Assembly: GCA_964555185.1 (NCBI GenBank)
Contig: CAZKRD010000001.1
Location: 124,265-188,264, forward strand
Length of the DNA: 64,000 nt
Direction: 5' to 3'
Source: an uncultured Candidatus Saccharibacteria bacterium
GTDB lineage: Bacteria; Patescibacteriota; JAQUNI01
Each line of letters starts with the position of its first letter. Position 1 is the first letter of the stretch. Positions 1,828-59,548 of this stretch are shown here, in pieces. The position numbers and the translations under genes were made by a program. The notes under the pieces are model-generated. The model searched no databases. It saw only the letters and a list, made by a program, of their open reading frames with translations, and was not told the origin of the DNA.

Positions 1828-2172
1828 TCCTTTTCATTATTATCATTAGATTCAACAGATTCAACCTATCTATAAACTCATTTTCACTCTACAAGATAAA
1901 CATTCAAAAGTCAAGTAATGTCATTGCGAGGAGCGACCAGAGGGAGCGACGCGGCAATCTCCAAACAGCAAGAATGAACCATTTTACTGGACAGAGATTG
2001 TCGCCAATACCGGGTGACCACCCAAAGGGTGGCTTCGGTCATCTCTCGTCAAGCTCGGGTTTCCCTCGCAATCACAGAAAATAAAAAGCCAAAATGCCTT
2101 TATCTGATTTGTCAAAAAAGAATATTCTCTATCGCTTCCGGAAATTCATTTCCGTTCTTTTGTTAGTAGGTG
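1782..2172. repeat. Copy 2 of the tandem-duplicated cassette; contains the intact start of the giant gene
   Basis: See 270..662. Confidence 0.85.
1917..2074. repeat. Family-A IR miniature element (second copy)
   Basis: Identical to 408..565. Confidence 0.6.
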
Positions 2173-5100: not shown

Positions 5101-8024
5101 ACTTTTACCGGCCAGGCGCGGATTATACCTGGCAGTTATATTTGCGTAATAAAATCCAAGGCGCGGCTTGGGGCAATTTACCATCGCCGCAGGCAGAGGT
5201 TGATTCTGCCTCTCAAAGGGTTTTGCAGTCTAGTCCGAGTCCGAGTCCGACTCCTACTCCTGATACCCTCCCCAGCTGTACACTTTCTGCTAATCCTTCA
5301 AGACCAGAACCTGATCATATTGTGAATTTTTCAGCTAGAGTGACGGATGAAAACAATCATATCACTGATTGGATATTTGATTATGACGATGGCGCGTGGA
5401 CAAGTGGCGAGGGCAGTCCCGGGGCCGAGGCATCCTTTAGCCATACTTACACTGTGCCGGGAGGCAGTTATACTCCTGCCTTAATACTCAATCTTGATAC
5501 TGGTCCGGGTACGGTTGGTTGTATTACAGCAGTTGATGTTATTGGCCATGGCGCCGAATACGATAGCTTATATGGCAAATTAGAAGCAGTGCCCTACGGT
5601 ACAGAGAGTCAGGAAATGATTGATCGCTGTGTTCAGGGGATTAGCGTGGAGGATGCTCCTTTTCCAGATGATTATCCTGACAGGATTATGTTTATGCATA
5701 TGGGCAGGTATCAGCCTTCCGGCGCCGCTAATGCTATGATGCATGAAATCAGAGCTTATCAAGAAGAATGGCTAGAGAATTATAGGTATGAACATCCGCC
5801 AACAATGGCGCAGTATATGTTTAAGGCTAATTTAAAACTCAACGCGTTAGGACCGAATGTTGCTTTCCCGGGTATGCGCGATGAAATTTTTGAGGAGCTT
5901 GACACCGAATTTGGATATGGACCCACAGAAAATGTAATGAAGACCCAAGAATGGAAAGACTCTGTATATCAAGCATGGGAAGAAACCCTTACGGTTTATA
6001 GGATAACAGCAGGCGGCAGTCTGACCCCGATTACCAGGGACGAATTTGACTATATTCTTTCGATGATGACTGGCGATGTGGCTATGGGAGTGGTAACGGG
6101 CATTGGCCTTTTTCGCCCCAACATTGGTCAGGCCCTAGGGGCGATTCAGCTGCTTGGAAGGGGCTTAAAGTGGGTAATAAATAAGGTTGGAGGGGATTCT
6201 ACGAGCAGGCTTAGTTCGGAAATAGGAAAGGCCGGCCCTAGACAGCAAGTTTTAGATTTTGATCACAGTCAAAACCTTAATATTAACACGCATCGGGGCA
6301 AGTTTAAGATTGAGCTTAAGAACGATGACGATGAATTCTGCAACGGTAAGGTTATTCCTTTTATGCTTTATTTGTATAAAAATAAAGAGAAACGCCCGAT
6401 CAGCGCTCTTCCCTATAACTGGCTAATCGGCGAGCCGGAAGAGCCGACCCCAACTCCGACCCCATCCCCATCCCCAACTCCATCCCCATCCCCAACTCCG
6501 ACCCCATCCCCAACCCCTCCAAGCAATCCACTTGAGTTTGTGAAGTGTGAGGTTTATAAGGACGAGTGCCATCCTGACCGTGCATTAGAAGGTATTTGCA
6601 CAAATAATAATGGCATGATTGAGCCGGCAGAGACAGTTACTCTCAAGGTATATCTTAAAAATAAAACTGGAGGGTTTATAGAAAGCGAGGTGACTTTTAC
6701 TTCTATGAATCTCCCTAGTGAAGTTTGCGTGGGCATTTCACCTGGTGATGGCTCTTGTCCTGGCTTTTTGAACCAAACTTATTATCTTGACGGCGGCGCG
6801 ATTTTTGGTCATCGCTATCCATTTGCTGTTTCGAAATATTATAGCAAATCCTACTTGACTTTTCGTTTGCTCGGTGATATTGAAGGCAGCGGCGGCCAGC
6901 GCGCGATTGATGAGCAATTTATTGTAAATTTATATAGATCAGACAATGTCTGTGTATGGGGCCCTGATCCATCGCCAACACCGACGCCAACACCGACGCC
7001 AACCCCTCCTTCAGGGTACCCTGATTTAGTCGTGAAGCCTGGCGAGGAGTTTGGGTATAGGATGAAAAATGACAAAGATGGCAGTGGCGGAGTAACTGTT
7101 GGCGACGAAGTTGAGGTGTGGTTTAGGGTTACAAATCAAGGAACAGAGGATATGGACTCAGGAGATAAATGGGATATAAAACTGTATTCGCGTTATGGCA
7201 GTGGTAATTTTGATCATTTTAGGACATATACGGACCAGAGTCCGCTTGATGCTCCTAGCGGGAGCAGCTGGGATACTGTAGTAGTTTATTACTTCCCTAT
7301 TTTCGAGATCAGAGAGTCAAAAGATGTTTGTTTTGCCTTAAAAATAGATTCTGGTGATGATGTTGACGAGGGTTCTAGTGGAGAGAGAAATAATGAACCT
7401 GGCTTTAGCTCGCCTTATTACTGCATTCCGGTAGGCAGTACTCCGACTCCGACTCCTCCGGAGGTGAAGAAGGATGCTAAGATGAAAGAGGTGAACCTTG
7501 ATTCCGTAAAGGAGTCATCTCAAGGGGGTTCCTACACCTTTGATGCCGACTATACAATTGTCAATAATAGCCAGCCTCCGGATACGGCGATCGGCGGCGG
7601 AAGTGATGACTTTTACCGCAAGCCTACTTTAATGAAAGTGGATATTGGTAGAAAAGCCAGTGATTATAGTAAGACTGGGTGCTTCAAAGAGCTTGAGAAG
7701 CTTACTAATTATTCGAATAATAATAGAATAACGCGTTTGGATGAAAACGGCGATACCCAGTTTGTAAACTTTAATGATCAAGTTTATGGGCCTTGGGAAA
7801 GTGCTAGTTACCAAGTGAAGGCCGAGGTGTGGCACAAGTATGATGGAGATGATGATACCAGTAATAATATTTTATGTTCTGATCCGTTGAATATTTATAT
7901 AGGACCGTTACCGGCAGCCAATCCAGACAGTGAGCAGTCTATTGCCGGCGTAGCTCAAGAATTAACTTTAAGACAAAGAATCAAGCGGGTGTGGGATTAT
8001 GTTATAGACAAAGTCAAAAGATAA
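2094..8024 (+). CDS. Giant secreted or surface protein (1976 aa) with Pro-Thr/Pro-Ser linkers and PKD-like/CARDB-like segments
   Basis: Uninterrupted 5.9 kb ORF with an N-terminal hydrophobic anchor (ISVLLLVGVFALSIGF). Low-complexity linkers PSPSPTPTP, PTPTPSPSPTPSPSPTPTPSPTP, PSPTPTPTPTP. A PKD-like stretch (VNFSARVTDENNHITDWIFDYDDGAWTSGEG...SFSHTYTVPGGSYTPALILN) and a CARDB-like stretch (PDLVVKPGE...GDEVEVWFRVTNQGTEDM). Confidence 0.8.
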   Translation: MPLSDLSKKNILYRFRKFISVLLLVGVFALSIGFHPLQVSADSDDAINKRIEEGGSIGTSSLFQDLVVGPISSFGSMLQNFKYGDVINLILKNTLNKIIDRFYDKVIKEFEDKYRVKDTLTQWWLPYVNARFDKFHGWVGEQVGGGMEGPLLEVFLALENTVYKGVVDTGHYLENRLFKTLELLLKGTGAIVAKEVGMQVGTSNYFNYGFRSLGTDALTMFWKGEAKVLEMTQEAERDASLDYLTSDALTRGDQVMNQPEGGLNLAKEREIRKNSKYNFKEIEDQMSEWAYENAGVGNDPARKCAYAFEDGSVYRVTVGSDKLDGGDFGYSHVPNVQGPGQWDIFPYSEKSNWNVLRIWSLFDDGLADLVYDESGKFQKIFYYGSTGAPQEVQSYAIYNKAGLIKIWSCRLSGPAHIKYKDAGLIENINYYADPKATPRSITTFSFSSRSGSVTGWTGLIERPGQAVKNYLQELINSRFERANDESSSLTGLGKVMYDLMDGFTDAIQFETIIEEREGHPMYGCPVGFDTNIDDLWQEMRPFGDKENPSSFDCLMRAVGQIGWDIFPTIAKYIGCLAEKLLCWIFNIDSKSAESQTVQYDYETEVKEEGEWGENRAVALDEAGEPIKKRNTGRFTTESFLRFAAQYLIYVKLIKPHMPDVSGLAGSFWEWVKNQDWFPEWGKSLGDALSTILELADDFLESWAWGKVIAFALKLLGFCDDRCEDRESTPVPKKPKLSCEEICQEYPDSVVYTGNHSIWHEDPNKSGTFLRDAIGADGKELGLEENKNGALMAGTDNYLGIEMCNCTEDTAALGWKFSLQSDQKDFENSLDPEYRVTSDPKNEVLLENSTMMDGSTSSCQRNNHCLIPRVVSADSKKGWRKFKIEVGEKARTREVIFSLVTHQMANLHDDQGIFENIYYQTVKTDDEGRVIFNTNTKLPEIDFKKLDDQEISFTLPVRTETLFDIMAPLYDSDDENKGDLPLQKIYRTDLDEPPVLVSYGPDTDFYRPGADYTWQLYLRNKIQGAAWGNLPSPQAEVDSASQRVLQSSPSPSPTPTPDTLPSCTLSANPSRPEPDHIVNFSARVTDENNHITDWIFDYDDGAWTSGEGSPGAEASFSHTYTVPGGSYTPALILNLDTGPGTVGCITAVDVIGHGAEYDSLYGKLEAVPYGTESQEMIDRCVQGISVEDAPFPDDYPDRIMFMHMGRYQPSGAANAMMHEIRAYQEEWLENYRYEHPPTMAQYMFKANLKLNALGPNVAFPGMRDEIFEELDTEFGYGPTENVMKTQEWKDSVYQAWEETLTVYRITAGGSLTPITRDEFDYILSMMTGDVAMGVVTGIGLFRPNIGQALGAIQLLGRGLKWVINKVGGDSTSRLSSEIGKAGPRQQVLDFDHSQNLNINTHRGKFKIELKNDDDEFCNGKVIPFMLYLYKNKEKRPISALPYNWLIGEPEEPTPTPTPSPSPTPSPSPTPTPSPTPPSNPLEFVKCEVYKDECHPDRALEGICTNNNGMIEPAETVTLKVYLKNKTGGFIESEVTFTSMNLPSEVCVGISPGDGSCPGFLNQTYYLDGGAIFGHRYPFAVSKYYSKSYLTFRLLGDIEGSGGQRAIDEQFIVNLYRSDNVCVWGPDPSPTPTPTPTPTPPSGYPDLVVKPGEEFGYRMKNDKDGSGGVTVGDEVEVWFRVTNQGTEDMDSGDKWDIKLYSRYGSGNFDHFRTYTDQSPLDAPSGSSWDTVVVYYFPIFEIRESKDVCFALKIDSGDDVDEGSSGERNNEPGFSSPYYCIPVGSTPTPTPPEVKKDAKMKEVNLDSVKESSQGGSYTFDADYTIVNNSQPPDTAIGGGSDDFYRKPTLMKVDIGRKASDYSKTGCFKELEKLTNYSNNNRITRLDENGDTQFVNFNDQVYGPWESASYQVKAEVWHKYDGDDDTSNNILCSDPLNIYIGPLPAANPDSEQSIAGVAQELTLRQRIKRVWDYVIDKVKR

Positions 8025-8258: not shown

Positions 8259-8806
8259 ATGCAAGGAAAGTTATGTCGTCGTCGTTCCATTAGATTGCCA
8301 GCATATAATTATTCTCAAGCCGGATATTATTTTGTGACGATTTGCACCCAGAATTTTTGGTGTTGTTTGGGAGAAGTTATTGCTGGGGAGATGAAACTAT
8401 CCGAAGCAGGGCATATGATTGATCAGAAATGGCAGGGATTAAAGAATAAATTTAAAAACATCAGGTTAGATCGATATCAGATTATGCCAAATCATTTCCA
8501 TGGGATTATTGTCATTACCCGTACAAAAATCGTCCCAGACTAGGTGATATTATTGGTGCATTTAAATCGATAACAACCTATAGATATATCCAAAATGTCA
8601 AAAGTAAAAACTGGCCTCGGTTTCACAAGCGTTTCTGGCAGCGCAACTATTACGAACACATCATCAAAACCGAAGAGTCCCTAAACCAATTCCGTGAATA
8701 TATTAAGAAGAACCCAGTACATTGGGAGAGTGACAGGAATAATCCTGATAATGTTAAGGTGAAATATTCCGCAAAAATTAAAACACAATGCGTAAAAATA
8801 AGTTAA
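8259..8806 (+). pseudogene. REP-associated tyrosine transposase (RAYT / IS200-IS605 TnpA family), frameshifted
   Basis: Part 1 (8259..8543): RRRSIRLPAYNYSQAGYYFVTICT...QIMPNHFHGIIVI (HxH motif). Part 2 is in another frame to 8806: RLGDIIGAFKSITTYRYIQ...RFWQRNYYEHIIKTEESL..YIKKNPVHWESD (catalytic Tyr region). The frames switch at the A5 run 8525-8529; six A's would restore one ORF of about 185 aa. Confidence 0.7.
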
Positions 8807-11800
8807 AAATATTTGCTCTGCTCGCTTTTATCCTGATCGGCGTGTTTTGGGGTGTGGGAAGGGTCGCGAAGGTTCAGGCGGAGAATCTGGTGGAGTGCAA
8901 ACGGAAAGCCTCTGTAGCAGCAACAGCATCATATTGGACAAAGGGTGATGTAAAGTGTGATTTAGATCAGAATCAGATTTGTGCCTACTATTCGGAATGG
9001 GGTAGCTTGGGATGGTATCCTAAAGAGATATGTAAAAAATTAGTTGAGGCCCGACATTGCTTAGGAGAAGACCCTGACTGTAATACAGATTTTGAAGGCG
9101 CTTTATTTGGAGGCGATGTAGAGAATGTTAAAATGAGAGAAGGGATTGAAACTGTGCCAGCTTATTATATGAGTGATAAGGATTATAAAATTGGCTGTCA
9201 GCAAGGGTTTTCGCCTGCTTCAACTGGCGATCATGAGAGGGCAATAGGTGTTGGTTTGGGGAGGAGGTCTGCTGAAATCTATCAATGCTTAGAGGAAACC
9301 GACCCCGGGGTTTATCAGGATGCTTGCGGCGATGGCAGAGGCGTACATAAAGAAGGGGATCAAATCATACCCACGGCTTGTGTAAGCTCTGATAAGCAAT
9401 GCGTGCCTCAGACCAAAGACGGACAATATGTATTCTTCGCGATTGCTAATAGAACGCTAACGCGCGAACAGGAATGGGTTGATGTTGGTAATCCATCGAG
9501 AGTCGTTATAAAACCAGGAAGCAAGGCTTATTGTTATGATACTTATCAAGAGATAGATTCTGCTAATTGTTATTTAGAAGCAGATAAAGACTTAATAGAT
9601 AAAGATTCTCCTGGCAGAAAGATTACCCCTAGCATAAACGCTGTTTATGGCGCAATAGTTGGTCAGAACGTTAAAGAATATTTTAGGCCGCATTATGAAT
9701 GTGAAGAAGGGGGCAGTGCATTTTGGCAGATATTCAACAGCACAATCGGCGTAGCATTGACCACGATTTTTGGCCTTATTGCCTCGGTTATTATTTTTAT
9801 TCTTGGCGCTGTGTTTTGGCTCGTTACCGCTTTTTTGGAATGGGTAATGGGGATTAGTAAGATAGAGGTAGGGATTATTGATATTGTTTGGGAGTTTTTG
9901 CGTGATTTTTCCAATATGTTCTTTATTATCATCCTGCTCTATATTGCTTTCTGTACGGTTTTGCGCATCCAGAGCCAGAATATTAAAAAAGCCCTGCCCT
10001 GGTTTATGTTTTCTGTCATCCTGATCAATTTTTCTCAAGTGATTTGTCAGATAGTGCTTGATTTTTCCCAGATTTTGATTGACGGCATTTATTACTTAAT
10101 GCCCGGGAACTGGTGGGGGCGGGTAAATTTTGTTTTGCATGCCGGGGGCATGGATGAATGGATGAATGTCAGGACTGTTTTTGGCAGTAGAAAGTTAAAT
10201 GATTTTGTCGGCGTAATCGGGGCGCAGGGTTTGAGTATTCTTTATATGGTGGCGTCCGTGATTGTTTTTGGCGCGACTGCTTTTCTTTTGGCAATCCGGA
10301 TTGTGGTTTTGTGGATTATGACCGCGATTTCGCCGCTTATTTATGTCGCGATGGCTGTTGGCAACAAGGGCATTGTCAAAAAGTACTGGATCAGTTTCTT
10401 GCGCACAGCCTTTTTCGCGCCAGTAATGATTTTTTGTATTGTCATCTCCATTGTTATTTTAAGCTATGATTTGGATGATTATTTAAAGTCAGAAGTGGGT
10501 ACAGTAGAACAGGTTTTAAGTGAAGAAGCAACTCAAGGAAATATTGTCACCGAAGCCGGCTCATTCCAGAATTTTATCCAACTGATTTTCGCCCTTGCTT
10601 TTATGTGTACTGGGCTTGTTGTCGCGCGCAAAGGCAGTGTGATCGGCGCTGACGGGGTAGTTAAAGGGGCGATGAAGCTTGGCAAGATGACTGCGCCCTG
10701 GATCACGGGTGTTAAACCGGCTGGCCATGGCGTGAAAGCGCTGGCTGGCTATGGCTGGCGTCAGGCCTTGAAGAGCCGGGCCGGGAAATATTTGAAGGTT
10801 GTCAGTCCCACGGTTTGGAAAAGAGCAACCAAGGCGCGCCGCGAGCGCGTGATGGAAGAAACTTTTGTCCCGCGCGCTGCCGAACTACAGCCAAGGCTCG
10901 CCGGCTGGCATGCTTTTTGGCACGGCGGCGGTCCTGCCTATGAGATGGAGAAGAAGAGAGCGGATAGTGCTAAAAGGAAATTAGCCAAAGATGAAGGCGA
11001 TAGGTTGACTCAGACTGATGAGCCATCAGAGTCTTTTATTGGCGTAATGAAAGTAGCCTTAGATCAAGCTAAGGAGCGGGGTGATCTTGGTTCGATTCGT
11101 GCGCTAACCCCTCTTGTTGAAGGAGCGCTCCGCACGGCGGGAATAGCGCGCGGCGACTGGAATGATGTCTTAAAGAGTAAATTTCTTAAAGAATCGGGAT
11201 ATGGCATTCAAAGAGCGACAACCGGCGCTGATGTTAGGATGTTTAAACAGCTTTTCGGCGATGACCCAGAGGCAATTCAAGTTTTAAACAGTTTGGCCGA
11301 GTCTTCCAAATCCAAATACACCCACCTTGCTTACGCTACCTATTTTGATGAAGAACAAGGCAAGCTGATCTATGGTATTGATAGAAAGGCGACAAGGTCG
11401 GAGATGAAAAGTGAGTTAGAAAAGTTAAATAAAAGAAGATTGAAAGCAGGCGAACAGGAGATGGAATTTGATGATTTCTATGAAGAGATTATTGAAAACT
11501 TAGGACAGGTTGACTCAACTGTTCGAGAAAATAAGCGGCTTCAGCAATTAGGTATGGCCGATGAGGTAGCCAATATAATCAAATTCTATAATAATGACCG
11601 CTCTAAAACAATTCTGGGTGAATTGGCGAAGAAAAGCCCTAAGGATAAATGGACAGTTAATCCAGGCGCGTTTGCCGCGGAAATCGGTGGGGGCTACACA
11701 GACCCTGAGACTGGTGAGTGGCATAAATATTATGGCGAGACAGCTTCAACAGAAGCCTATGTTGAAAGTGCAACCATGGCCGACGCAACAAGAATCGACA

Positions 11801-12159
11801 GCTGGGCTCCTCCGCGCATGCGCAAGGCCATTCTTGGTAATGAAAAAATGGTGAATAAAGTTCTTGAAGGGATAGAAACAAAGAGAAGAAAGGAGAAAAA
11901 AGATGAACTTGAGCAAGCAAAGGCTGTAGGTAACAGAGAAGAAGTAGAGAGAATTGAAAATTATATTACGGAACAAAGAGTAGTTTGGAACGCATTGTAT
12001 AGGAAGCTTAAGATAAAAGAGAAAACTGTTGTTGATGGAACCAAAAAGCAAACTGTTGTTGATGGAACCGAGGACGAGACAACAAGAACAGAGGAAGACG
12101 AAGCAGATGCTGCTGAAGATGCAGCTGCAGCTGCTGAAGAGGAAACAGAAGGAACTTAA
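8788..12159 (+). CDS. VirB6/TrbL-like polytopic membrane protein with Cys-rich N-terminal ectodomain and a ~400-aa C-terminal module (1123 aa)
   Basis: Signal/TM (IFALLAFILIGVFWGV), a Cys-rich region, then 6-8 predicted TM helices at aa 300-620 (IGVALTTIFGLIASVIIFILGAVFWLV..., ILYMVASVIVFGATAFLLAIRIVVLWIMTAISPLIYVAMAV...). It lies immediately upstream of the VirB3-like/VirB4 genes. The C-terminal part (nt ~10944..12156) is paralogous to 13434..14618. Confidence 0.5.
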   Translation: MRKNKLKIFALLAFILIGVFWGVGRVAKVQAENLVECKRKASVAATASYWTKGDVKCDLDQNQICAYYSEWGSLGWYPKEICKKLVEARHCLGEDPDCNTDFEGALFGGDVENVKMREGIETVPAYYMSDKDYKIGCQQGFSPASTGDHERAIGVGLGRRSAEIYQCLEETDPGVYQDACGDGRGVHKEGDQIIPTACVSSDKQCVPQTKDGQYVFFAIANRTLTREQEWVDVGNPSRVVIKPGSKAYCYDTYQEIDSANCYLEADKDLIDKDSPGRKITPSINAVYGAIVGQNVKEYFRPHYECEEGGSAFWQIFNSTIGVALTTIFGLIASVIIFILGAVFWLVTAFLEWVMGISKIEVGIIDIVWEFLRDFSNMFFIIILLYIAFCTVLRIQSQNIKKALPWFMFSVILINFSQVICQIVLDFSQILIDGIYYLMPGNWWGRVNFVLHAGGMDEWMNVRTVFGSRKLNDFVGVIGAQGLSILYMVASVIVFGATAFLLAIRIVVLWIMTAISPLIYVAMAVGNKGIVKKYWISFLRTAFFAPVMIFCIVISIVILSYDLDDYLKSEVGTVEQVLSEEATQGNIVTEAGSFQNFIQLIFALAFMCTGLVVARKGSVIGADGVVKGAMKLGKMTAPWITGVKPAGHGVKALAGYGWRQALKSRAGKYLKVVSPTVWKRATKARRERVMEETFVPRAAELQPRLAGWHAFWHGGGPAYEMEKKRADSAKRKLAKDEGDRLTQTDEPSESFIGVMKVALDQAKERGDLGSIRALTPLVEGALRTAGIARGDWNDVLKSKFLKESGYGIQRATTGADVRMFKQLFGDDPEAIQVLNSLAESSKSKYTHLAYATYFDEEQGKLIYGIDRKATRSEMKSELEKLNKRRLKAGEQEMEFDDFYEEIIENLGQVDSTVRENKRLQQLGMADEVANIIKFYNNDRSKTILGELAKKSPKDKWTVNPGAFAAEIGGGYTDPETGEWHKYYGETASTEAYVESATMADATRIDSWAPPRMRKAILGNEKMVNKVLEGIETKRRKEKKDELEQAKAVGNREEVERIENYITEQRVVWNALYRKLKIKEKTVVDGTKKQTVVDGTEDETTRTEEDEADAAEDAAAAAEEETEGT

Positions 12160-15788: not shown

Positions 15789-16205
15789 ATGCAAGCAGTC
15801 GTACCCCAATTTATTGAAGTTGAAGACAGAATCATTGGCCCTTTAACCTTAAAACAGTTTCTTTATTTTTTAGCAGCCGGCGGCATAGAGCTTGTCTATT
15901 GGTTTTTCTTTGATTTTTCTTTATTTATTTTAATCAGTATTCCGACCGTAGCGATCGCCTTCGCCTTCGCCTTCTTTAAGATTAACGATCGGCCTTTTAT
16001 CTATTTTGTTTTAGCGGTCATTGGGTTTTATCTAAAACCAGTGGTCAGGGTTTGGCATCGCCGCGGCAGTAAATTAACGGCGCGGGATATTATTGCTGTT
16101 TCTTTCCTTGAAGAAACTGAAGGTGTGGGGCACAAGGATTTGCTTAAAGCGCATATGAAGCGGGGACGGCTAGCCCACATCGAGAAAGCGCTTGAAACAG
16201 CGTAG
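15789..16205 (+). CDS. Small two-TM membrane protein, VirB3/PrgI-like by position and topology
   Basis: 138 aa with a hydrophobic hairpin (FLYFLAAGGIELVYWFFF...ILISIPTVAIAFAFAFF...FVLAVIGFYL). It lies directly upstream of the VirB4 N-domain ORF, as virB3 does in T4SS loci. Confidence 0.4.
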   Translation: MQAVVPQFIEVEDRIIGPLTLKQFLYFLAAGGIELVYWFFFDFSLFILISIPTVAIAFAFAFFKINDRPFIYFVLAVIGFYLKPVVRVWHRRGSKLTARDIIAVSFLEETEGVGHKDLLKAHMKRGRLAHIEKALETA

Positions 16206-16334
16206 AGTTTAGTTTAAAATTCAAAATGCAAAGTTAAAAGTTGCAATTAGAAGTTTAAAGTTATGGAAAATAAGGAGTTGAAAGGACAGCTAGTTAGGTT
16301 CCTATATCTATCGCTACTTTAATAAATTTGATAA

Positions 16335-16395
16335 AGAAAAGAAAACTTTAAATTTTGGATTCAATTTTGAACTTTGAACTTTGAACTTTTAACTA
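16335..16395. repeat. Family-B 8-bp periodic repeat upstream of the VirB4 N-domain ORF
   Basis: 'ttcaattttgaactttgaactttgaacttttaact'. Confidence 0.65.
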
Positions 16396-16402
16396 TATAC
16401 CT

Positions 16403-17155
16403 ATGCCCCCCAAACAAAAACCTAAAAATAAAACTAATCCCAAGGAGAATAAGAAGTCCAAAGGCCGTTTTTTCAGTCTCCATTCCAAAAAGCTGACCGC
16501 GGGCAAGCCCAAGAAAACCACCCAGCAATTTTTGGATATTGTTGGGATCAGGGATAATACAGTGGTGCTTCGCGACGGCACTCTGCGCGCGATTATCATG
16601 GTTTCCAGTATGAATTTTTCTTTGAAGGGCCAAGAAGAGCAGAACTCCATTATCTATAGTTATCAAAGTCTTTTGAATGCTCTGAATTTTCCTATCCAGT
16701 TTGTGATTCAGTCTCGAGAATTGAATATTGAGTCCTATCTTAAAAATTTGGAAGAGCTAGAAGCAAAGCAAACGAATGAGCTTTTAAGGATTCAGACCAT
16801 AGAATACCGCGAGTACGTGAGCGAACTTGTTGAGTGGGGCCAGATTATGCGCAAACGTTTTTACATAGTCGTATCCTATGCTTTGGTGGAAGCCAAGGAA
16901 GAAAGTATGCTGTCCAAATTCAGAGCGATTGTGCGGCCGGCGGAGATTGTGCGGCAAAAGGAAAAAGACTTCTTAAGATACAAAAGTCTTTTGGATCAGA
17001 GAGTGGCGCGTATGGACGGTCTCCTAAATTCAATCGGCTTAAAGAGCGTACGTTTGAATACACAGGAATTAATTGAGCTGTTCTATAACGTCTACAATCC
17101 GTTTGTTTCTAGAACTCAGCCCTTAGCTGATGTTAAGAAACTTAATATTGTCTAG
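16403..17155 (+). CDS. VirB4/TraE-family N-terminal domain encoded as a separate ORF
   Basis: QFLDIVGIRDNTVVLRDGTLRAIIMVSSMNFSLKGQEEQNSIIYSYQSLLNALNFPIQFVIQS...RFYIVVSY matches the pattern of the extreme N-terminus of Gram-positive-type VirB4 proteins. Same frame as 17177..19117, separated by TAG (17153-5) and TAA (17159-61). Confidence 0.5.
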   Translation: MPPKQKPKNKTNPKENKKSKGRFFSLHSKKLTAGKPKKTTQQFLDIVGIRDNTVVLRDGTLRAIIMVSSMNFSLKGQEEQNSIIYSYQSLLNALNFPIQFVIQSRELNIESYLKNLEELEAKQTNELLRIQTIEYREYVSELVEWGQIMRKRFYIVVSYALVEAKEESMLSKFRAIVRPAEIVRQKEKDFLRYKSLLDQRVARMDGLLNSIGLKSVRLNTQELIELFYNVYNPFVSRTQPLADVKKLNIV

Positions 17156-17176
17156 CCCTAAATCAGAAATAAATCA

Positions 17177-19117
17177 ATGCCTAATCCAAAAAACAACAAA
17201 GCCAAAAAAGAGTCAAGGGGTAAGCCCATTTTAGAAATTGTTGGTCCTGGCGCGTCCTCCAGGCTGGGTTTAACCCAAGAAGAGAAGGTAAGAGTTCTTG
17301 AGGCGCAGAAAGATTATTTAGAAGGCATCGCCACAATCAGAGACTTAATCGCGCCAGCGGCGATGAAGATTGACTCCCGTTATGTGCAGATTGGAGACTA
17401 TTTTGCGCGCACTCTTTTTATCTTCACTTATCCGCGTTATCTGCATACCGATTGGTTCTCGCCCGTGATTAATATGGACGCGGTTTTTGATGTAGCGATG
17501 TTTGTTTATCCTCAAAGTTCAGCTTCAGTTTTAAAGCGCCTGACTAAAAGCGCGGCCCAAATTTCTTCCTCTATTTCAATGGAGCGGGAAAAAGGCAAGG
17601 TCAGAAGCCCGATGCTTGAGACCGCGCATAGGGATGTTGAGTCATTACGAGATGCCTTGCAGCAGGGTACAGAGCGATTATTTAAATTCGCTCTCTATAT
17701 AACCATTTATGGGACTTCCTTAAAACATCTCGACAAAAATACAAAAAGGGTGGAAGTCTTGCTGGGCACTCGCTTGATCTATGCTAAGCATGCTATTTTC
17801 CAAAGCGAGCAGGGATTTAACTCTACTCTGCCGCTTGCCAATGACGAGCTTTTTATTGTTAACAATTTGAATACTTCGCCTTTGTCCACCAGCTTCCCTT
17901 TTGTTTCTTATGAGCTTTCTTCTAATGAAGGAATTCTTTACGGTGTTAATCGCCATAATAACAGCTTGATTCTTTTTGACCGTTTTTCTTTGGAAAATGC
18001 TAATAGCGTGGTTTTTGGCAAATCAGGCGCGGGTAAGAGCTATGCGATTAAGCTTGAAATTTTGCGGAGCTTAATGTTGGGAACCGATGTTTTGGTGATT
18101 GATCCGGAGAATGAGTATAAGCACCTGGCCAGCGCGGTAGGGGGGGCCTTTTTGCAGATTTCTCTGTCCTCACCCCATCGGATTAATCCTTTTGATTTGA
18201 CCTTGGTCTCGCGCGCATCCAAGCCCGAGGACATTTTAAGAGAGGCAGTGATAAGTCTAAAGGGGCTTTTGAGATTAATTTTAAGCGGAGTTAGTCCAGA
18301 GGAAGACGCACTTTTAGATGAAGCGGTGATGCAGACCTATGCTTCCAAAGGGATTACCCCTGAAACTTCCTGGGAGGGCCGGGCAATGCCCACGATGGAT
18401 GACTTTGAACGGATCCTGCAGAGTATGGAAGGGACCGACAGTATGGTCCAGATTTTAAGCAAGTTTACCAAAGGAACCTTTGCCGGCATCTTTAATCAGC
18501 CGACTAATCTTACTATGGATAGGCAGTTCGTGGTTTTCAGTATTCGTGATTTGGAGGATGAGCTCCGGCCGATCGGGATGTATGTGGTTTTAAATTACAT
18601 TTGGAATATCGTTCGCGCGGAATTAAAGAGAAGGGTTTTGGTGGTGGACGAGGCCTGGTGGATGATGGAGCACGAGGACTCGGCCCAGTTCCTGTTTTCA
18701 ATCGCGAAAAGGGCGCGCAAGTATTATTTAGGATTGACTACGATCAGCCAGGATGTTAATGACTTCTTGGCTTCTCGCCACGGCCAGGCGATCGTGACCA
18801 ACTCTTCAATTCAGCTCCTTCTGCGCCAGTCTCCGGCCTCGATTGATCTAGTCGCTTCCGTTTTTCACCTCACCCAGGAGGAAAAGTATCTGCTTTTGGC
18901 TTCGGACGTGGGAGAGGGAATTTTCTTCGCCGGCAATAAGCACGTGGCGATCAAGATTGTCGCTTCTTATTCTGAAGACCAGATCATTACCTCTGATCCC
19001 AAGCAGCTGATTGAGATCGCGAAAGCGAAAGAGGAGTTTGCGAGAGTGAACAATCAAGAAAACGAGGCAGCGGAAGAGAGAGACGATTCAGAGCAAGGGG
19101 CAAGTAACACTATTTGA
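17177..19117 (+). CDS. virB4: VirB4/TraC/CagE-family T4SS ATPase (646 aa)
   Basis: LIAPAAMKIDSRYVQIGDYFARTLFIFTYPRY... then YGVNRHNNSLILFDRFSLENANSVVFGKSGAGKSYAIK (Walker A), VLVIDPENEYKHLASAVGG, and VLVVDEAWWMM (Walker B, DEAW). Confidence 0.85.
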   Translation: MPNPKNNKAKKESRGKPILEIVGPGASSRLGLTQEEKVRVLEAQKDYLEGIATIRDLIAPAAMKIDSRYVQIGDYFARTLFIFTYPRYLHTDWFSPVINMDAVFDVAMFVYPQSSASVLKRLTKSAAQISSSISMEREKGKVRSPMLETAHRDVESLRDALQQGTERLFKFALYITIYGTSLKHLDKNTKRVEVLLGTRLIYAKHAIFQSEQGFNSTLPLANDELFIVNNLNTSPLSTSFPFVSYELSSNEGILYGVNRHNNSLILFDRFSLENANSVVFGKSGAGKSYAIKLEILRSLMLGTDVLVIDPENEYKHLASAVGGAFLQISLSSPHRINPFDLTLVSRASKPEDILREAVISLKGLLRLILSGVSPEEDALLDEAVMQTYASKGITPETSWEGRAMPTMDDFERILQSMEGTDSMVQILSKFTKGTFAGIFNQPTNLTMDRQFVVFSIRDLEDELRPIGMYVVLNYIWNIVRAELKRRVLVVDEAWWMMEHEDSAQFLFSIAKRARKYYLGLTTISQDVNDFLASRHGQAIVTNSSIQLLLRQSPASIDLVASVFHLTQEEKYLLLASDVGEGIFFAGNKHVAIKIVASYSEDQIITSDPKQLIEIAKAKEEFARVNNQENEAAEERDDSEQGASNTI

Positions 19118-19788: not shown

Positions 19789-19794
19789 CTGATA

Positions 19795-19862
19795 ATTTAA
19801 AGTTCAAAGTTCAAAGTGACACTTCAAGTGTCATCCTGAAGGCGCTTTAGCGCCGAAGGATC
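19795..19862. terminator. Paired hairpins after the lipoprotein gene (family-B variant)
   Basis: 'aagttcaaagttcaaagtgacacttcaagtgtcat' + 'ggcgctttagcgcc'. Confidence 0.4.
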
Positions 19863-20837: not shown

Positions 20838-22076
20838 ATGAAAAAAACTTTTTTTTTGATAGTTTGTTTAGCGCTTTTATTAGCCCCTGGAATTATTAGA
20901 GCAAGTGAGAATGATTGCCAGGGGACCTGGGTTAAGGTGCCAATCCCAATTGTTTTTGACCCAGAGATTAGAAGTCCAGGTGGTGGCGATGAAAAATTGA
21001 GCGTAATTACGCAAAATGGCCGCTGTATCCCCAACCCGGCGATTTTGATGTTTATGCTTTTTTACCTTGCTTTGGTTTTCATGGCTTTGGTCGCGATTTT
21101 TATGATCACGCTCGGCGGGTATAATTATCTTACTGCCTTTGGCAATGCCGAACGCGCCAAAGGGGGCAAGTCAATGATACTCGCCGCGATCGGCGGCTTG
21201 GTCGTAGGGCTTTTATCTTATGTGCTTTTGAATTTTATCAATCCGGATTTAACCAGTTTTGATTGGAGCACTAATAAGCTTAGTCAGGAAATAGGGAAAT
21301 CAATGGAAAAGATCGCGGAAGAAGAGAAGAAAGAGGAAAATTTATGCCCTAATAAAGCAGGGCCTTGTTATAAGAAGCCGATAGACGAAACTTGTGAAGT
21401 CAGTGGTGAAATTGGTTATTGTCGGATGAATGTTAATGTCAAAATGTGTACATGTGATGCTGATGAATGCGCTGATAACTGCGCTGGTGGTGATCTTAAG
21501 TGCGTAGGCAAGAAGTGTAAGGATGAGGATGAGGATGCTCAGATTTCTGATGGTCAGTGCCTGCTTAGTTCTGGATCTGCAATCTGCATGGACATTGAAG
21601 GTGCCTGTGGGAATGATTGCGGCGAAACCGGTAGCGCGTACTGGCAAGGTGATCTTAATTGTTGGGGAGGTTATGACTGCGATGTTGACGGGGTTTCCGG
21701 TCTTTGTTTAGGAGGCGATAGTTACAGCGGAGCAGGGAAGGAGTTATGTTTGTCTTGGGAAGATGTATGTGAGCAGGGTGAGTGTGGTGATAGTTATTCA
21801 GGCGAGACCGCCCAGAAAGTGGAAGATGAGTGTCATACGAATTATACATGTGATAATGAAAATGGAGCTTGTTTTAATGGCAGCTGTTGGCCGGGCTCTC
21901 CGTATGGGCTTGAGCCTTGCAGTAATGCTTGTGATGCTTGCCTCTATGACAGGGCAGGGAGTGGCCAGAAATTCGGGATATGTAAAGAGATTTATTCTGA
22001 TACCTTCCAATGCACATCTTACGAAGACGCTTTTCCATGTAGTGGTCTTCCTGATATTTCAGATCCAATAGATTAG
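20838..22076 (+). CDS. VirB2/TrbC-like double-TM N-terminal region fused to a ~240-aa domain with 37 cysteines
   Basis: Signal peptide (FFLIVCLALLLAPGIIRA). Two hydrophobic helices separated by a short polar loop (ILMFMLFYLALVFMALVAIFMITLGG-YNYLTAFGNAERAKGGKSM-ILAAIGGLVVGLLSYVLLNFINP), which is pilin-like topology. The C-terminal region has 37 Cys (CTCDADECADNCAGGDLKCVGKKCKDEDED...). Confidence 0.45.
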   Translation: MKKTFFLIVCLALLLAPGIIRASENDCQGTWVKVPIPIVFDPEIRSPGGGDEKLSVITQNGRCIPNPAILMFMLFYLALVFMALVAIFMITLGGYNYLTAFGNAERAKGGKSMILAAIGGLVVGLLSYVLLNFINPDLTSFDWSTNKLSQEIGKSMEKIAEEEKKEENLCPNKAGPCYKKPIDETCEVSGEIGYCRMNVNVKMCTCDADECADNCAGGDLKCVGKKCKDEDEDAQISDGQCLLSSGSAICMDIEGACGNDCGETGSAYWQGDLNCWGGYDCDVDGVSGLCLGGDSYSGAGKELCLSWEDVCEQGECGDSYSGETAQKVEDECHTNYTCDNENGACFNGSCWPGSPYGLEPCSNACDACLYDRAGSGQKFGICKEIYSDTFQCTSYEDAFPCSGLPDISDPID

Positions 22077-22084
22077 TTCTTATT

Positions 22085-22215
22085 TTGTACTTCAACTTTT
22101 AACTTGTATTTTTGCCTGCCCGCCGAAGCCTTGGCGTAGACGGGCCTGCCCACAACGCTTCACTTGCGAGGCGGGTGGGAGATTTAACTTTTAACTTTGC
22201 ACTTTTAACTTTTAA
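22085..22215. repeat. Family-B repeat (GC hairpin plus AACTTTTAACTTT periodic tract) between the Cys-rich pilin-like gene and the PD40 gene
   Basis: 'acttcaacttttaacttg...gcctgcccgccgaagccttggcgtagacgggcctgccc...gcgaggcgggtgggagatttaacttttaactttgcacttttaacttttaacttttc'. Confidence 0.7.
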
Positions 22216-22224
22216 CTTTTCTCC

Positions 22225-23429: not shown

Positions 23430-24272
23430 ATGGAAAAACTCGGTCGTTTTGAAAAAATAATTATTCTAATCCTTATCCTGATCGCGATTTCAGGTGTTTT
23501 GATTTTTTTTCGGAAAACAAGAGATCGTGAGCTTGCTTTTTTGAAAATAGAGGCACAAAGCAAAGACGCTTCCTTTAGAGAAGAGAGTAATCCTGTTGGT
23601 GGTAATGTAGAAGAAGGAATCTTTGCTTATGACGAGATGGGGCTTAAGAGCCAATCAAGAGAAGGTGATTATCTTGCAAAGGAAAAGGACTCCTCTCTGG
23701 AAGAAGAGTTTGGAACAGAAAATCCACAATCAATGGTCGCGAGCACTCATTCCTTGAGTTTGGCAACAGAGGATGATCCTGCTTGGGGCCCGGAGAACGC
23801 CCAAGTCGTGATTGTCGAGTTTTCTGATTTTTTGTGTCCGTATTGCGCTGAATTTTCTTTAAAGATTTTGCCTCAAATAAGATCTCAATACGGCAGTAGA
23901 GTAAGATTTGTTTTTAAAGATTTGCCGGTTGAGTCCCTGCATCCTGGCTCGGGCAAGGTGCACGAAGCAGGGGAATGCGCGCATGAGCAGGGCCGCTTCT
24001 GGCAGATGCACGATTTGATTTTTGCTAATAATGCCGCTTTATCTGAAAGCAAACTCGCGGCTTTGGCCGAGGCGGCTGGCTTGGATACAGATGCCTTTAA
24101 TCTTTGTTTAGAAAGTGGTCAGAAGATGGTGGAAGTTGCAGGCGACCTAGAGAGCGGTTTCAGCGCGGGCATCCAAGTAACACCGACTTTGTTTATTAAT
24201 GACCGCAAAATTGAGGGAGCGGTTTCGTTTGTAGAGATCAGCAGAGTTATTGAGGAGGAATTGGCTTACTAG
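23430..24272 (+). CDS. dsbA: Thiol:disulfide oxidoreductase, DsbA family (membrane-anchored)
   Basis: N-terminal TM, then VIVEFSDFLCPYCAEF (CPYC active site) in a thioredoxin fold (...IQVTPTLFINDRKIEG). Confidence 0.8.
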   Translation: MEKLGRFEKIIILILILIAISGVLIFFRKTRDRELAFLKIEAQSKDASFREESNPVGGNVEEGIFAYDEMGLKSQSREGDYLAKEKDSSLEEEFGTENPQSMVASTHSLSLATEDDPAWGPENAQVVIVEFSDFLCPYCAEFSLKILPQIRSQYGSRVRFVFKDLPVESLHPGSGKVHEAGECAHEQGRFWQMHDLIFANNAALSESKLAALAEAAGLDTDAFNLCLESGQKMVEVAGDLESGFSAGIQVTPTLFINDRKIEGAVSFVEISRVIEEELAY

Positions 24273-28907: not shown

Positions 28908-29012
28908 ATCAGTTTAAAGTTCAAAGTTTAAAGTTCAAGATTGAATTTAAAGTTAAAAGTTGCAGATTTTGAGTTATAACTTTGAATTTTGAACTTTGAA
29001 TTTTTAACTGTC
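28908..29012. repeat. Family-B promoter-proximal 8-bp periodic AT-rich tandem repeats (AAGTTCAAAGTT / AACTTTGAA)
   Basis: 'cagtttaaagttcaaagtttaaagttcaagattgaatttaaagttaaaagttgcag...aactttgaattttgaactttgaatttttaactg', directly upstream of recG (minus strand). Confidence 0.7.
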
Positions 29013-59469: not shown

Positions 59470-59548
59470 CTCGGTTAAAATTTCAACTTTTAACTTTAAA
59501 CTTTGCCTGCCTGCCGGAGCCTTGGCGTAGGTAGGAATTTTGAACTTG
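59470..59548. repeat. Family-B repeat (AACTTTTAACTTTAAACTTT plus GC hairpin)
   Basis: 'aaatttcaacttttaactttaaactttgcctgcctgccggagccttggcgtaggtagg'. Confidence 0.65.

What the first reader, a model, noticed from the sequence alone, without database searches (positions are those of the whole stretch)
16403..19117. VirB4 ATPase encoded as two ORFs in the same frame, separated by two stop codons (TAG 17153-5, TAA 17159-61)
ORF 16403..17155 carries what looks like the extreme N-terminal VirB4 segment (QFLDIVGIRDNTVVLRDGTLRAI...). ORF 17177..19117 starts in the same frame 21 nt later and carries the rest (…LIAPAAMKIDSRYVQIGDYFARTLFIF… through the ATPase core). Two in-frame stops 3 nt apart make a single sequencing error unlikely. 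This is either a genuine two-subunit VirB4 with a separate N-domain, a recent nonsense inactivation, or stop-codon readthrough. There is no sign of a non-standard code elsewhere in the window.
Basis: seen in the sequence. Interest (0 to 1): 0.6.

Follow-up and report, generated by a model that had tools for sequence, protein, structure and literature searches.

The report
Conserved two-gene VirB4 (TrsD plus ATPase)
The type IV secretion motor VirB4 really is encoded here as two adjacent genes, but this is the normal, conserved and already published arrangement (a TrsD-like protein plus a shortened VirB4) in Patescibacteria, not a broken gene or a case of stop-codon readthrough.

Summary
ORF1 is 16403..17155 (250 aa, TAG stop). 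A second in-frame TAA lies at 17159-61. ORF2 is 17177..19117 (646 aa) in the same frame.

The split is old and conserved:
- All 80 related Patescibacteria loci keep a ~225-250 aa gene directly upstream of a ~630-650 aa virB4.
- Spacers run from -20 to +192 nt, and the frame relation looks random (27 same, 33 +1, 20 +2).
- The closest relatives have spacers of 21, 150 and 572 nt. The 572-nt spacer contains an inserted gene.
- ORF1 is under strong purifying selection (dN/dS about 0.05).
- An independent assembly has the identical sequence.

The shared frame and the double stop are therefore coincidental. Nonsense inactivation, readthrough and sequencing error are rejected.

The arrangement is published. 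TrsD, a remote homologue of the VirB4 N-terminus, is the most abundant T4SS component in Patescibacteria and is usually encoded next to virB4 (PMC12102498). The same split occurs in pGO1/pSK41-type staphylococcal plasmids. Interest is low. What TrsD does is still unknown.

The parts
15789..16205 (+). prgI, a VirB3-like membrane protein, the first gene of the prgI / trsD-like / virB4 trio
   Evidence: Pfam PF12666 PrgI, E 3.7e-8, 34.2 bits against a cutoff of 27. A PrgI gene holds the same position upstream in L085, L087, L088 and L089 and directly upstream of the fused VirB4 in E. faecium.
16206..16402 (.). 197-nt intergenic region with an imperfect inverted repeat built from TTTGAAC-like heptamers (arms 16210-16258 and 16347-16395)
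   Evidence: the repeat finder pair I1: 49-nt arms, 73% complementary. RNA fold -43.8 kcal/mol, z = -3.56. The motif is enriched in the window, 25 matches against 2.2 expected. Function unknown; listed as context only.
16403..17155 (+). ORF1: TrsD-like protein (Pfam PF26593 'TraC-like'), equivalent to the first ~200 residues of the VirB4 N-terminal domain, encoded as a separate gene
17153..17161 (+). TAG stop of ORF1 (17153-5), a CCC codon, then a second in-frame TAA (17159-61)
   Evidence: Read directly. Identical in the independent assembly L086. The stop sits at the same codon position in relatives, but the codon differs: TAA in L087 and L088, TAG in L089.
17156..17176 (+). 21-nt intergenic spacer with no SD motif, promoter or terminator, as expected for genes co-transcribed in one operon
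   Evidence: In relatives the spacer ranges from -20 to +192 nt and reaches 572 nt in L088.
17177..19117 (+). ORF2: VirB4-family ATPase (CD1110-type) that lacks the extreme N-terminal segment
   Evidence: NCBIfam conju_CD1110, E 1.1e-107, 361 bits against a cutoff of 325, aligned from profile position 185 of 752. VirB4_plasma 292-893; TIGR00929 240-724; TraC 290-717. Pfam P-loop_TraG, AAA_10, DUF87 and CagE_TrbE_VirB positions 60-197. PDB 4ag5 VirB4 C-terminal domain, E 7.5e-48.
18017..18040 (+). Walker A motif GKSGAGKS (ORF2 residues 281-288)
   Evidence: Regex on the translation. It aligns with the P-loop of 4ag5.
18635..18652 (+). Walker B motif VLVVDE (ORF2 residues 487-492)
   Evidence: Regex on the translation. 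It aligns with VLVVDEAW of 4ag5.
20838..22076 (+). Candidate T4SS pilin-like protein with a Cys-rich C-terminal extension, from the same gene cluster
   Evidence: Pfam PF18895 T4SS_pilin, E 0.0015, 19 bits, below the cutoff of 26.6. This is weak evidence.

Best explanation
These are two separately translated, co-transcribed genes of the Patescibacteria type IV secretion system. ORF1 is a TrsD-like protein that is homologous to the first ~200 residues of the VirB4 N-terminal domain. ORF2 is a VirB4 ATPase that has the rest of that domain (the CagE_TrbE_VirB part) plus the P-loop C-terminal domain, and lacks exactly the segment ORF1 supplies. The split is ancient and under selection. The shared reading frame and the two stops in this genome are coincidence. 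By inference, not shown here, ORF1 binds ORF2 non-covalently and rebuilds a complete VirB4 N-terminal domain. In the R388 machine that domain carries the contacts with VirB3 (here PrgI, encoded just upstream), with the VirB8 tails and with the second VirB4 of the dimer. The pair would then act as the hexameric motor at the base of the T4SS.
For: Shown by tool results:
- Collinearity and complementarity. ORF1 matches VirB4_plasma positions 88-235 and ORF2 matches 292-893. ORF2 starts at position 185/752, 240/792 and 290/800 of three other full-length VirB4/TraC models. Against the fused E. faecium VirB4, ORF1 38-235 aligns to 37-209 (weak) and ORF2 50-587 aligns to 223-770 with E 3e-49. The Spiroplasma fused VirB4 gives the same order.
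- Conservation of the split. 80 of 80 loci carry ORF1-like followed by ORF2-like, with random frames (27/33/20) and gaps of -20 to +192 nt. The nearest relatives have gaps of 21, 150 and 572 nt, the last with an inserted gene. The stop position is conserved while the stop codon varies.
- Selection. dN/dS is 0.05, and there are 36 invariant columns across 22 homologues.
- Independent assembly identical.
- All three stop codons are used as terminators in the window. Most genes lack an SD motif.
- The same split occurs outside Patescibacteria: a Pontibacillus plasmid (hhalign prob 99.8, E 2e-27) and S. aureus traD followed by the VirB4-family ATPase gene (annotated there as a DUF87 protein; the TraE/TrsE position).

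From the literature: TrsD has remote homology to the VirB4 N-terminus, has 2,272 homologues in Patescibacteria of which 1,664 lie next to virB4, and is essential in Ca. Southlakia epibionticum (PMC12102498). The roles of the VirB4 N-terminal domain are described in PMC9259494.
Against: - Physical association of ORF1 with ORF2 was not tested.
- ORF1 scores far below the curated cutoffs of the TrsD (30 against 200 bits) and VirB4_plasma (43 against 590 bits) models, so the homology is remote.
- hhalign of the ORF1 profile against single fused VirB4 sequences is weak (E 0.063 and 0.0011).
- The ORF1 model has only moderate confidence (pLDDT 68.8). Foldseek E-values are about 2e-3 with TM about 0.3-0.4.
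- According to PMC12102498, TrsD genes in Gracilibacteria are mostly not adjacent to virB4. That would allow some functional independence.
Confidence: 0.8

Rival explanations
1. ORF1 is a VirB4-N-terminus homologue that works as an independent accessory factor (chaperone, adaptor or regulator of the T4SS) and not as an integral, stoichiometric piece of the VirB4 motor.
Against: ORF2 lacks exactly the segment ORF1 matches in four full-length VirB4/TraC models. Adjacency is strict in 80 of 80 loci. The best structural matches are VirB4 itself.
Confidence: 0.15
2. Recent nonsense mutation: a formerly single virB4 gene has been broken, and ORF1 or the whole locus is a pseudogene.
For: The two ORFs share a frame, are 21 nt apart, and are collinear with one protein.
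Against: The stop falls at the same codon position in relatives that are 85%, 73%, 70% and about 50% identical. 80 of 80 loci are split, with frames distributed at random. dN/dS is 0.05. No single-chain version appears among the 120 best ORF1 homologues. ORF2 has its own ATG, and its N-terminal head is seen in the 85% relative.
Confidence: 0.01
3. Programmed stop-codon readthrough or recoding yields a single ~900-aa VirB4 from the two in-frame ORFs.
For: The same frame is seen in this genome and in its closest relative L087.
Against: Two stops here, and three in L087, would each have to be read through. 53 of 80 relatives have the genes in different frames or overlapping. L088 has a 572-nt spacer with another gene in it. 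TAA, TAG and TGA all terminate genes in this window, 17, 16 and 11 times. Rfam finds no recoding element.
Confidence: 0.01
4. A sequencing or assembly artefact introduced the stops.
For: None beyond the general possibility.
Against: An independent Logan assembly of SRR8482191 is identical over 2715 nt. The same gene boundary is present in hundreds of genomes.
Confidence: 0.005
5. ORF1 is unrelated to VirB4, for example a VirB8-like or other T4SS component that merely sits upstream.
For: The local Pfam scan gave no family for ORF1. The PDB sequence search gave no hit. hhalign against single fused VirB4 sequences is weak.
Against: NCBIfam VirB4_plasma E 1.5e-11 at the collinear position. The precomputed Pfam annotation is PF26593 'TraC-like', with PF11130 TraC_F_IV on one homologue. 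Two structure-comparison methods rank TrwK/VirB4 first. The literature states the homology.
Confidence: 0.03

Closest known systems
TrsD-VirB4 pair of the Patescibacteria (CPR) type IV secretion system (Quinonero-Coronel et al. 2025, PMC12102498; essential in Ca. Southlakia epibionticum ML1 according to Wang et al. 2023 as cited there)
   Same: A ~230-250 aa TrsD-like protein is encoded directly upstream of virB4, with prgI/virB3 nearby, in a chromosomal cluster of a small Patescibacteria genome. ORF1's nearest homologues are from Doudnabacteria, Falkowbacteria, Parcubacteria and similar groups.
   Different: Nothing substantive. This locus is one more instance. The paper notes the remote homology of TrsD to the VirB4 N-terminus. 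The sections read here do not say that the partner VirB4 lacks that segment. That complementarity is documented here.
TrsD/TraD + TrsE/TraE of staphylococcal conjugative plasmids (pGO1/pSK41 class, MPF_FATA)
   Same: A 227-aa traD gene lies 20 nt upstream of a 670-aa VirB4-family ATPase. The NCBIfam TrsD/TraD model hits ORF1 at E 3.5e-7 over nearly the whole profile, positions 4-157 of 201. hhalign covers both proteins end to end.
   Different: Similarity is very remote: 30 bits against a cutoff of 200, and hhalign prob 79.5%. That system is a plasmid conjugation system, whereas this one is chromosomal and apparently not conjugative. No relaxase or coupling-protein gene turned up in the neighbouring genes scanned. 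The cluster was not surveyed for them specifically.
Single-chain VirB4 ATPases: TrwK of R388, the CD1110/PrgJ type of Bacillota, the Mbov_0397 type of Mollicutes
   Same: ORF1 plus ORF2 are collinear with them. They share the same P-loop C-terminal domain (4ag5, E 7.5e-48) and the same position after prgI/virB3.
   Different: Here the first ~200 residues are a separate polypeptide. The break maps to the linker at about residues 209-223 of the E. faecium protein, which is inside the N-terminal domain (TrwK 15-400) and not between the N- and C-terminal domains.
VirB3-VirB4 fusion proteins of some conjugative systems
   Same: They also show that domain boundaries at the N-terminal end of the VirB4 module shift through gene fusion and fission. 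The Spiroplasma VirB4 examined here has a hydrophobic stretch, presumably transmembrane, ahead of the ORF1-like segment.
   Different: That is the opposite event, fusion rather than fission. No VirB3-VirB4 fusion is present here or in Patescibacteria (PMC12102498).

Membership tests
VirB4/TraC/TrbE T4SS ATPase (ORF2) | Score above the curated family cutoff of a VirB4 model | tested here: met
   NCBIfam conju_CD1110: 361.2 bits against a cutoff of 325, E 1.1e-107.
VirB4/TraC/TrbE T4SS ATPase (ORF2) | P-loop NTPase C-terminal domain with Walker A and Walker B motifs | tested here: met
   GKSGAGKS at residues 281-288 and VLVVDE at 487-492. PDB 4ag5 VirB4 C-terminal domain, E 7.5e-48. Pfam P-loop_TraG, E 2.9e-26.
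VirB4/TraC/TrbE T4SS ATPase (ORF2) | Complete N-terminal domain within the same polypeptide | tested here: not met
   Alignments begin at profile position 185/752 (CD1110), 292/894 (VirB4_plasma), 240/792 (TIGR00929) and 290/800 (TraC). Pfam CagE_TrbE_VirB is matched only from position 60.
VirB4/TraC/TrbE T4SS ATPase (ORF2) | ATP hydrolysis, hexamer formation and T4SS dependence | not testable with these tools
   Requires biochemistry or genetics.
TrsD/TraD family (NCBIfam NF041427) (ORF1) | Score above the curated cutoff of 200 bits | tested here: not met
   30.3 bits, E 3.5e-7. ORF1 is a remote homologue, not a member of the staphylococcal subfamily in the strict sense.
TrsD/TraD family (NCBIfam NF041427) (ORF1) | Small (~200-250 aa) soluble protein encoded immediately upstream of a VirB4 gene that lacks its N-terminal segment | tested here: met
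   250 aa, 21 nt upstream of ORF2. The layout matches S. aureus traD followed by the VirB4-family ATPase gene (annotated as DUF87).
TrsD/TraD family (NCBIfam NF041427) (ORF1) | Direct profile-sequence similarity to a bona fide TraD | tested here: inconclusive
   hhalign of A1 against S. aureus TraD: prob 79.5%, E 1.5e-5, 187 columns end to end.
Pfam PF26593 'TraC-like' (ORF1) | Hit to the Pfam model | tested here: inconclusive
   Precomputed annotation lists PF26593 for ORF1 itself and for all 120 listed homologues. The local Pfam-A scan returned no family at E <= 0.1, most likely because that copy lacks the model.
VirB4 N-terminal domain (ORF1 as its first half) | Sequence collinearity with the N-terminus of single-chain VirB4 | tested here: met
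   VirB4_plasma positions 88-235, E 1.5e-11; PRK13853 positions 6-66, E 0.027. The order is preserved against the fused E. faecium and Spiroplasma proteins.
VirB4 N-terminal domain (ORF1 as its first half) | Fold similarity to the N-terminal domain of a solved VirB4 | tested here: met
   [not shown]
VirB4 N-terminal domain (ORF1 as its first half) | Physical assembly with the rest of VirB4 and with VirB3/PrgI | not testable with these tools
Patescibacteria MPF_FATA-like T4SS cluster | prgI/virB3, trsD and virB4 co-located | tested here: met
   15789..16205 PrgI, 16403..17155 TrsD-like, 17177..19117 VirB4. The order is the same in relatives.
Patescibacteria MPF_FATA-like T4SS cluster | VirB2-like pilin and VirB6 nearby | tested here: inconclusive
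   20838..22076 hits T4SS_pilin only weakly, E 0.0015, below the cutoff. No VirB6 family hit was found among the neighbours scanned.
Programmed stop-codon readthrough / recoding | Conserved in-frame arrangement of the two ORFs across relatives | tested here: not met
   27 same-frame, 33 +1 and 20 +2 among 80 loci. Some gene pairs overlap and some have long spacers.

The most novel reading that the evidence does not exclude
The split may be functional and not a neutral fission. As a separate polypeptide, the TrsD-like N-module could be loaded onto only a subset of VirB4 subunits, or exchanged during assembly. In R388, VirB4central contacts VirB3 and VirB4outside contacts the VirB8 tails, so selective loading would give monoderm and Patescibacteria T4SSs a dissociable adaptor that controls how the motor docks on PrgI and the membrane. 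[quoted passage not shown]
Probability: 0.15. Interest if true: 0.5.

Novelty: already known. Interest (0 to 1): 0.15.

Why it matters
For genome annotation, this pair should not be flagged as a frameshifted or pseudogenised virB4, nor merged into one gene. The shared frame and double stop could mislead automated pseudogene callers. Biologically, the T4SS is one of the few systems shown to be essential for the epibiotic lifestyle of Patescibacteria, and TrsD is its most widespread component with no assigned function. Treating TrsD as the detached first half of the VirB4 N-terminal domain, with the partner VirB4 lacking exactly that part, gives a concrete hypothesis that can be tested: non-covalent reconstitution of the VirB3-binding domain. 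The observation itself adds nothing new to what is published.

Tried and rejected
1. Structure prediction of an ORF1-ORF2 complex. No interface model was obtained.
2. The afdb50 fold library was not available.
3. hhalign of the ORF1 profile against single fused VirB4 sequences. E. faecium gave E 0.063 and prob 0.9%. Spiroplasma gave E 0.0011 and prob 20% over 70 columns. Both are collinear but not significant on their own. The family-model hit and the fold searches carry the homology claim.
4. The first Spiroplasma comparison failed because that genome uses code 4. It was redone with a table-4 translation.
5. The PDB sequence search with ORF1 gave no hit.
6. The local Pfam scan of ORF1 gave no hit, although precomputed annotation gives PF26593.
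7. The main text of Guglielmini et al. 2014 (PMC4027160) does not mention TrsD by name. The homology statement is therefore cited from PMC12102498.
8. A promoter and terminator scan found nothing between the two ORFs. An Rfam scan found only three tRNAs in the window.
9. Alternative genetic code, considered and rejected. All three stop codons terminate genes here.
Full report
**1. Observation.**
The sequence at the junction reads GTC TAG CCC TAA ATC AGA AAT AAA TCA ATG. ORF1 (16403..17155, 250 aa) ends with TAG at 17153-5. A second in-frame TAA follows at 17159-61. ORF2 (17177..19117, 646 aa) starts 21 nt after ORF1's stop, in the same frame. An independent Logan assembly of run SRR8482191 is identical over the whole 2715-nt stretch. 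The window itself comes from a 706,972-bp metagenomic scaffold, ENA ERZ23486238 / SAMN10404973.

**2. What the two ORFs are.**
- ORF2 is a VirB4-family ATPase. It scores E 1.1e-107 (361 bits, cutoff 325) against NCBIfam conju_CD1110. It also hits Pfam P-loop_TraG, AAA_10 and DUF87, and positions 60-197 of CagE_TrbE_VirB. It matches the crystal structure of the Thermoanaerobacter VirB4 C-terminal domain at E 7.5e-48. Walker A (GKSGAGKS, residues 281-288) and Walker B (VLVVDE, residues 487-492) are intact.
- ORF2 is N-terminally short against every full-length model. Its alignments begin at profile position 185/752 (CD1110), 292/894 (VirB4_plasma), 240/792 (TIGR00929) and 290/800 (TraC).
- ORF1 hits the same VirB4_plasma model at positions 88-235 (E 1.5e-11). 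That is the stretch just before ORF2's match begins.
- ORF1 also hits the TrsD/TraD family model (NF041427, E 3.5e-7) over positions 4-157 of 201.
- Against a single-chain E. faecium VirB4 of 799 aa, encoded directly after a prgI gene, ORF1 38-235 lines up with residues 37-209 (weak, E 0.063). ORF2 50-587 lines up with residues 223-770 (E 3e-49). A Spiroplasma single-chain VirB4 gives the same order.
- The two ORFs are therefore collinear and complementary with one VirB4. The break falls inside the N-terminal domain, not between the N- and C-terminal domains.

**3. Fold.**

**4. Is the split recent, read through, or conserved?**
- *Homologues.* ORF1 has 423 detectable homologues. All 120 listed are standalone proteins of 221-306 aa from Patescibacteria (Doudna-, Falkow-, Parcu-, Buchananbacteria and others). 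All carry the precomputed Pfam family PF26593, named 'TraC-like'.
- *Alignment.* The family alignment is conserved along its full length, with 36 invariant columns. Every member ends about 15 residues after the ELIELxYNxYNP motif.
- *Related loci.* In 80 of 80 related loci, an ORF1-like gene (mostly ~220-260 aa) is followed on the same strand by an ORF2-like virB4 of 609-673 aa, with one exception of 718 aa.
- *Frame and spacer.* The frame relation across those loci is 27 same, 33 +1 and 20 +2 (chi-square p = 0.20). The spacer ranges from a 20-nt overlap to 192 nt.
- *Closest relatives.* L087 (85% aa identity) has the same 21-nt gap, but uses TAA instead of TAG and has two further in-frame stops. 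L089 (70%) has a 150-nt gap. L088 (73%, Doudnabacteria) has a 572-nt gap containing a 70-aa 23S_rRNA_IVP gene.
- *Selection.* dN/dS for ORF1 against L087 is 0.078/1.44, about 0.05.
- *Genetic code.* In the window all three stop codons terminate genes: TAA 17, TAG 16 and TGA 11 times. 3 of 13 adjacent gene pairs in the operon happen to share a frame.
- *Translation signals.* The weak RBS before ORF2 is normal here, because most of the 44 genes examined lack an SD motif, ORF1 included. No promoter or terminator lies in the spacer.
- *Conclusion.* Recent nonsense inactivation, readthrough and sequencing error are rejected. The shared frame and the double stop are coincidence.

**5. Comparison with what is known.**
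- *Bacillota plasmids.* The same split exists there. In a pSK41/pGO1-type S. aureus plasmid, traD (227 aa) lies 20 nt upstream of a 670-aa VirB4. hhalign of the ORF1 profile to that TraD gives prob 79.5% and E 1.5e-5, end to end.
- *Closest plasmid relative of ORF2.* The plasmid VirB4 most similar to ORF2 (Pontibacillus, 37% identity) is also short, at 621 aa. It is preceded by a 274-aa protein that is clearly homologous to ORF1 (prob 99.8%, E 2e-27).
- *Published description.* Quinonero-Coronel et al. [quoted passage not shown] They count 2,272 homologues in 2,221 assemblies, 1,664 of them next to virB4. TrsD has no assigned function and is essential in Ca. Southlakia epibionticum ML1. The locus here is thus one more instance of a published arrangement.
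- *What this analysis adds.* The only small addition is explicit evidence that the partner VirB4 lacks exactly the TrsD-like segment, and that the frame relation and spacer vary freely.

**6. How it most likely works.**
*Shown:* there are two genes, in one operon after prgI, both under purifying selection. ORF2 has an intact P-loop. ORF1 has a fold like the VirB4 N-terminal domain.

*Established knowledge (Macé et al. 2022, PMC9259494):* in R388 the VirB4 N-terminal domain (residues 15-400) is wrapped by VirB3. It forms the whole VirB4central-VirB4outside dimer interface and binds the VirB8 tails.

*Inferred:* ORF1 binds ORF2 non-covalently and completes this domain. The complex then docks on PrgI (15789..16205) at the membrane as the T4SS motor.

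**7. Verdict.**
The feature is real, but it is ordinary for this lineage and already described. Interest is low (0.15). Novelty: already known.

Noticed in passing
window 16210-16258 / 16347-16395; also 19793-19815, 22090-22218, 28910-28939 / 28974-29010, 59481-59547: Intergenic tandem heptamers of the TTTGAAC type, mostly arranged as long imperfect inverted repeats. There are 25 matches to TTTGAACTTTGAACTT (up to 3 mismatches) against 2.2 expected. The copy between prgI and ORF1 folds at -43.8 kcal/mol, z = -3.56. Function unknown; it could be a terminator, a promoter or a REP-like element.
   Followed up: partly
L013 4741-4934, L063/L066 ~4666-4797, L055 4398-4504, L059 4413-4519, L025 4497-4574 (spacers between the TrsD-like and VirB4 genes): Related Patescibacteria genomes carry similar intergenic repeat hairpins, but each genome has its own repeat unit. 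Examples are (TAACGCA)x13 with inverted GCGTTAC in L013, and AATTACG/CGTAATT in L063. This points to a genome-specific family of heptamer-repeat elements across the phylum.
   Followed up: no
L088 3561-3773: In a Doudnabacteria relative, a 70-aa 23S_rRNA_IVP (PF05635, four-helix-bundle) gene is inserted between the TrsD-like gene and virB4.
   Followed up: no
window 20838-22076: A 412-aa protein with a weak T4SS_pilin-like N-terminal segment (PF18895, E 0.0015, residues 74-133). It is followed by a long, very Cys-rich C-terminal region. It may be a pilin with a disulfide-rich extension, and a DsbA-like thioredoxin gene lies nearby at 23430..24272.
   Followed up: no
window 2094-8024 and 8788-12159: Two very large ORFs (1976 aa and 1123 aa) lie at the head of the same-strand gene block that contains the T4SS genes. 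The first has only a weak PKD domain hit and the second has no Pfam hit. They may be surface or adhesin proteins.
   Followed up: no
window 16403-16510 and 17177-17240: ORF1 and ORF2 both begin with Lys-rich low-complexity heads (MPPKQKPKNKTNPKENKKSK... and MPNPKNNKAKKESRGK...), each followed by a similar short motif (FLDIVGI and ILEIVGP). The ORF1 head is variable in relatives and has pLDDT below 50 in the ORF1 model. The ORF2 head is variable in relatives but was not modelled.
   Followed up: no
whole window (44 gene starts): Only a handful of genes have a recognisable Shine-Dalgarno motif, and most starts are preceded by A/T-rich sequence. This suggests largely SD-independent initiation in this genome.
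   Followed up: partly
Genome-contig loci L004, L006, L011, L017 and others; L068: Many public MAG records that carry this typical Patescibacteria TrsD-VirB4 locus are titled 'uncultured Gammaproteobacteria bacterium', and one is titled 'Pirellulales bacterium'. These are probably mislabelled or placeholder taxonomy, or contaminated bins.
   Followed up: no
ORF1 (window 16403-17155): The local Pfam-A scan returns no family for ORF1. The precomputed annotations give PF26593 'TraC-like' for ORF1 and all its homologues, so the local Pfam copy appears to lack this recent model.
   Followed up: no
[not shown]
   Followed up: no
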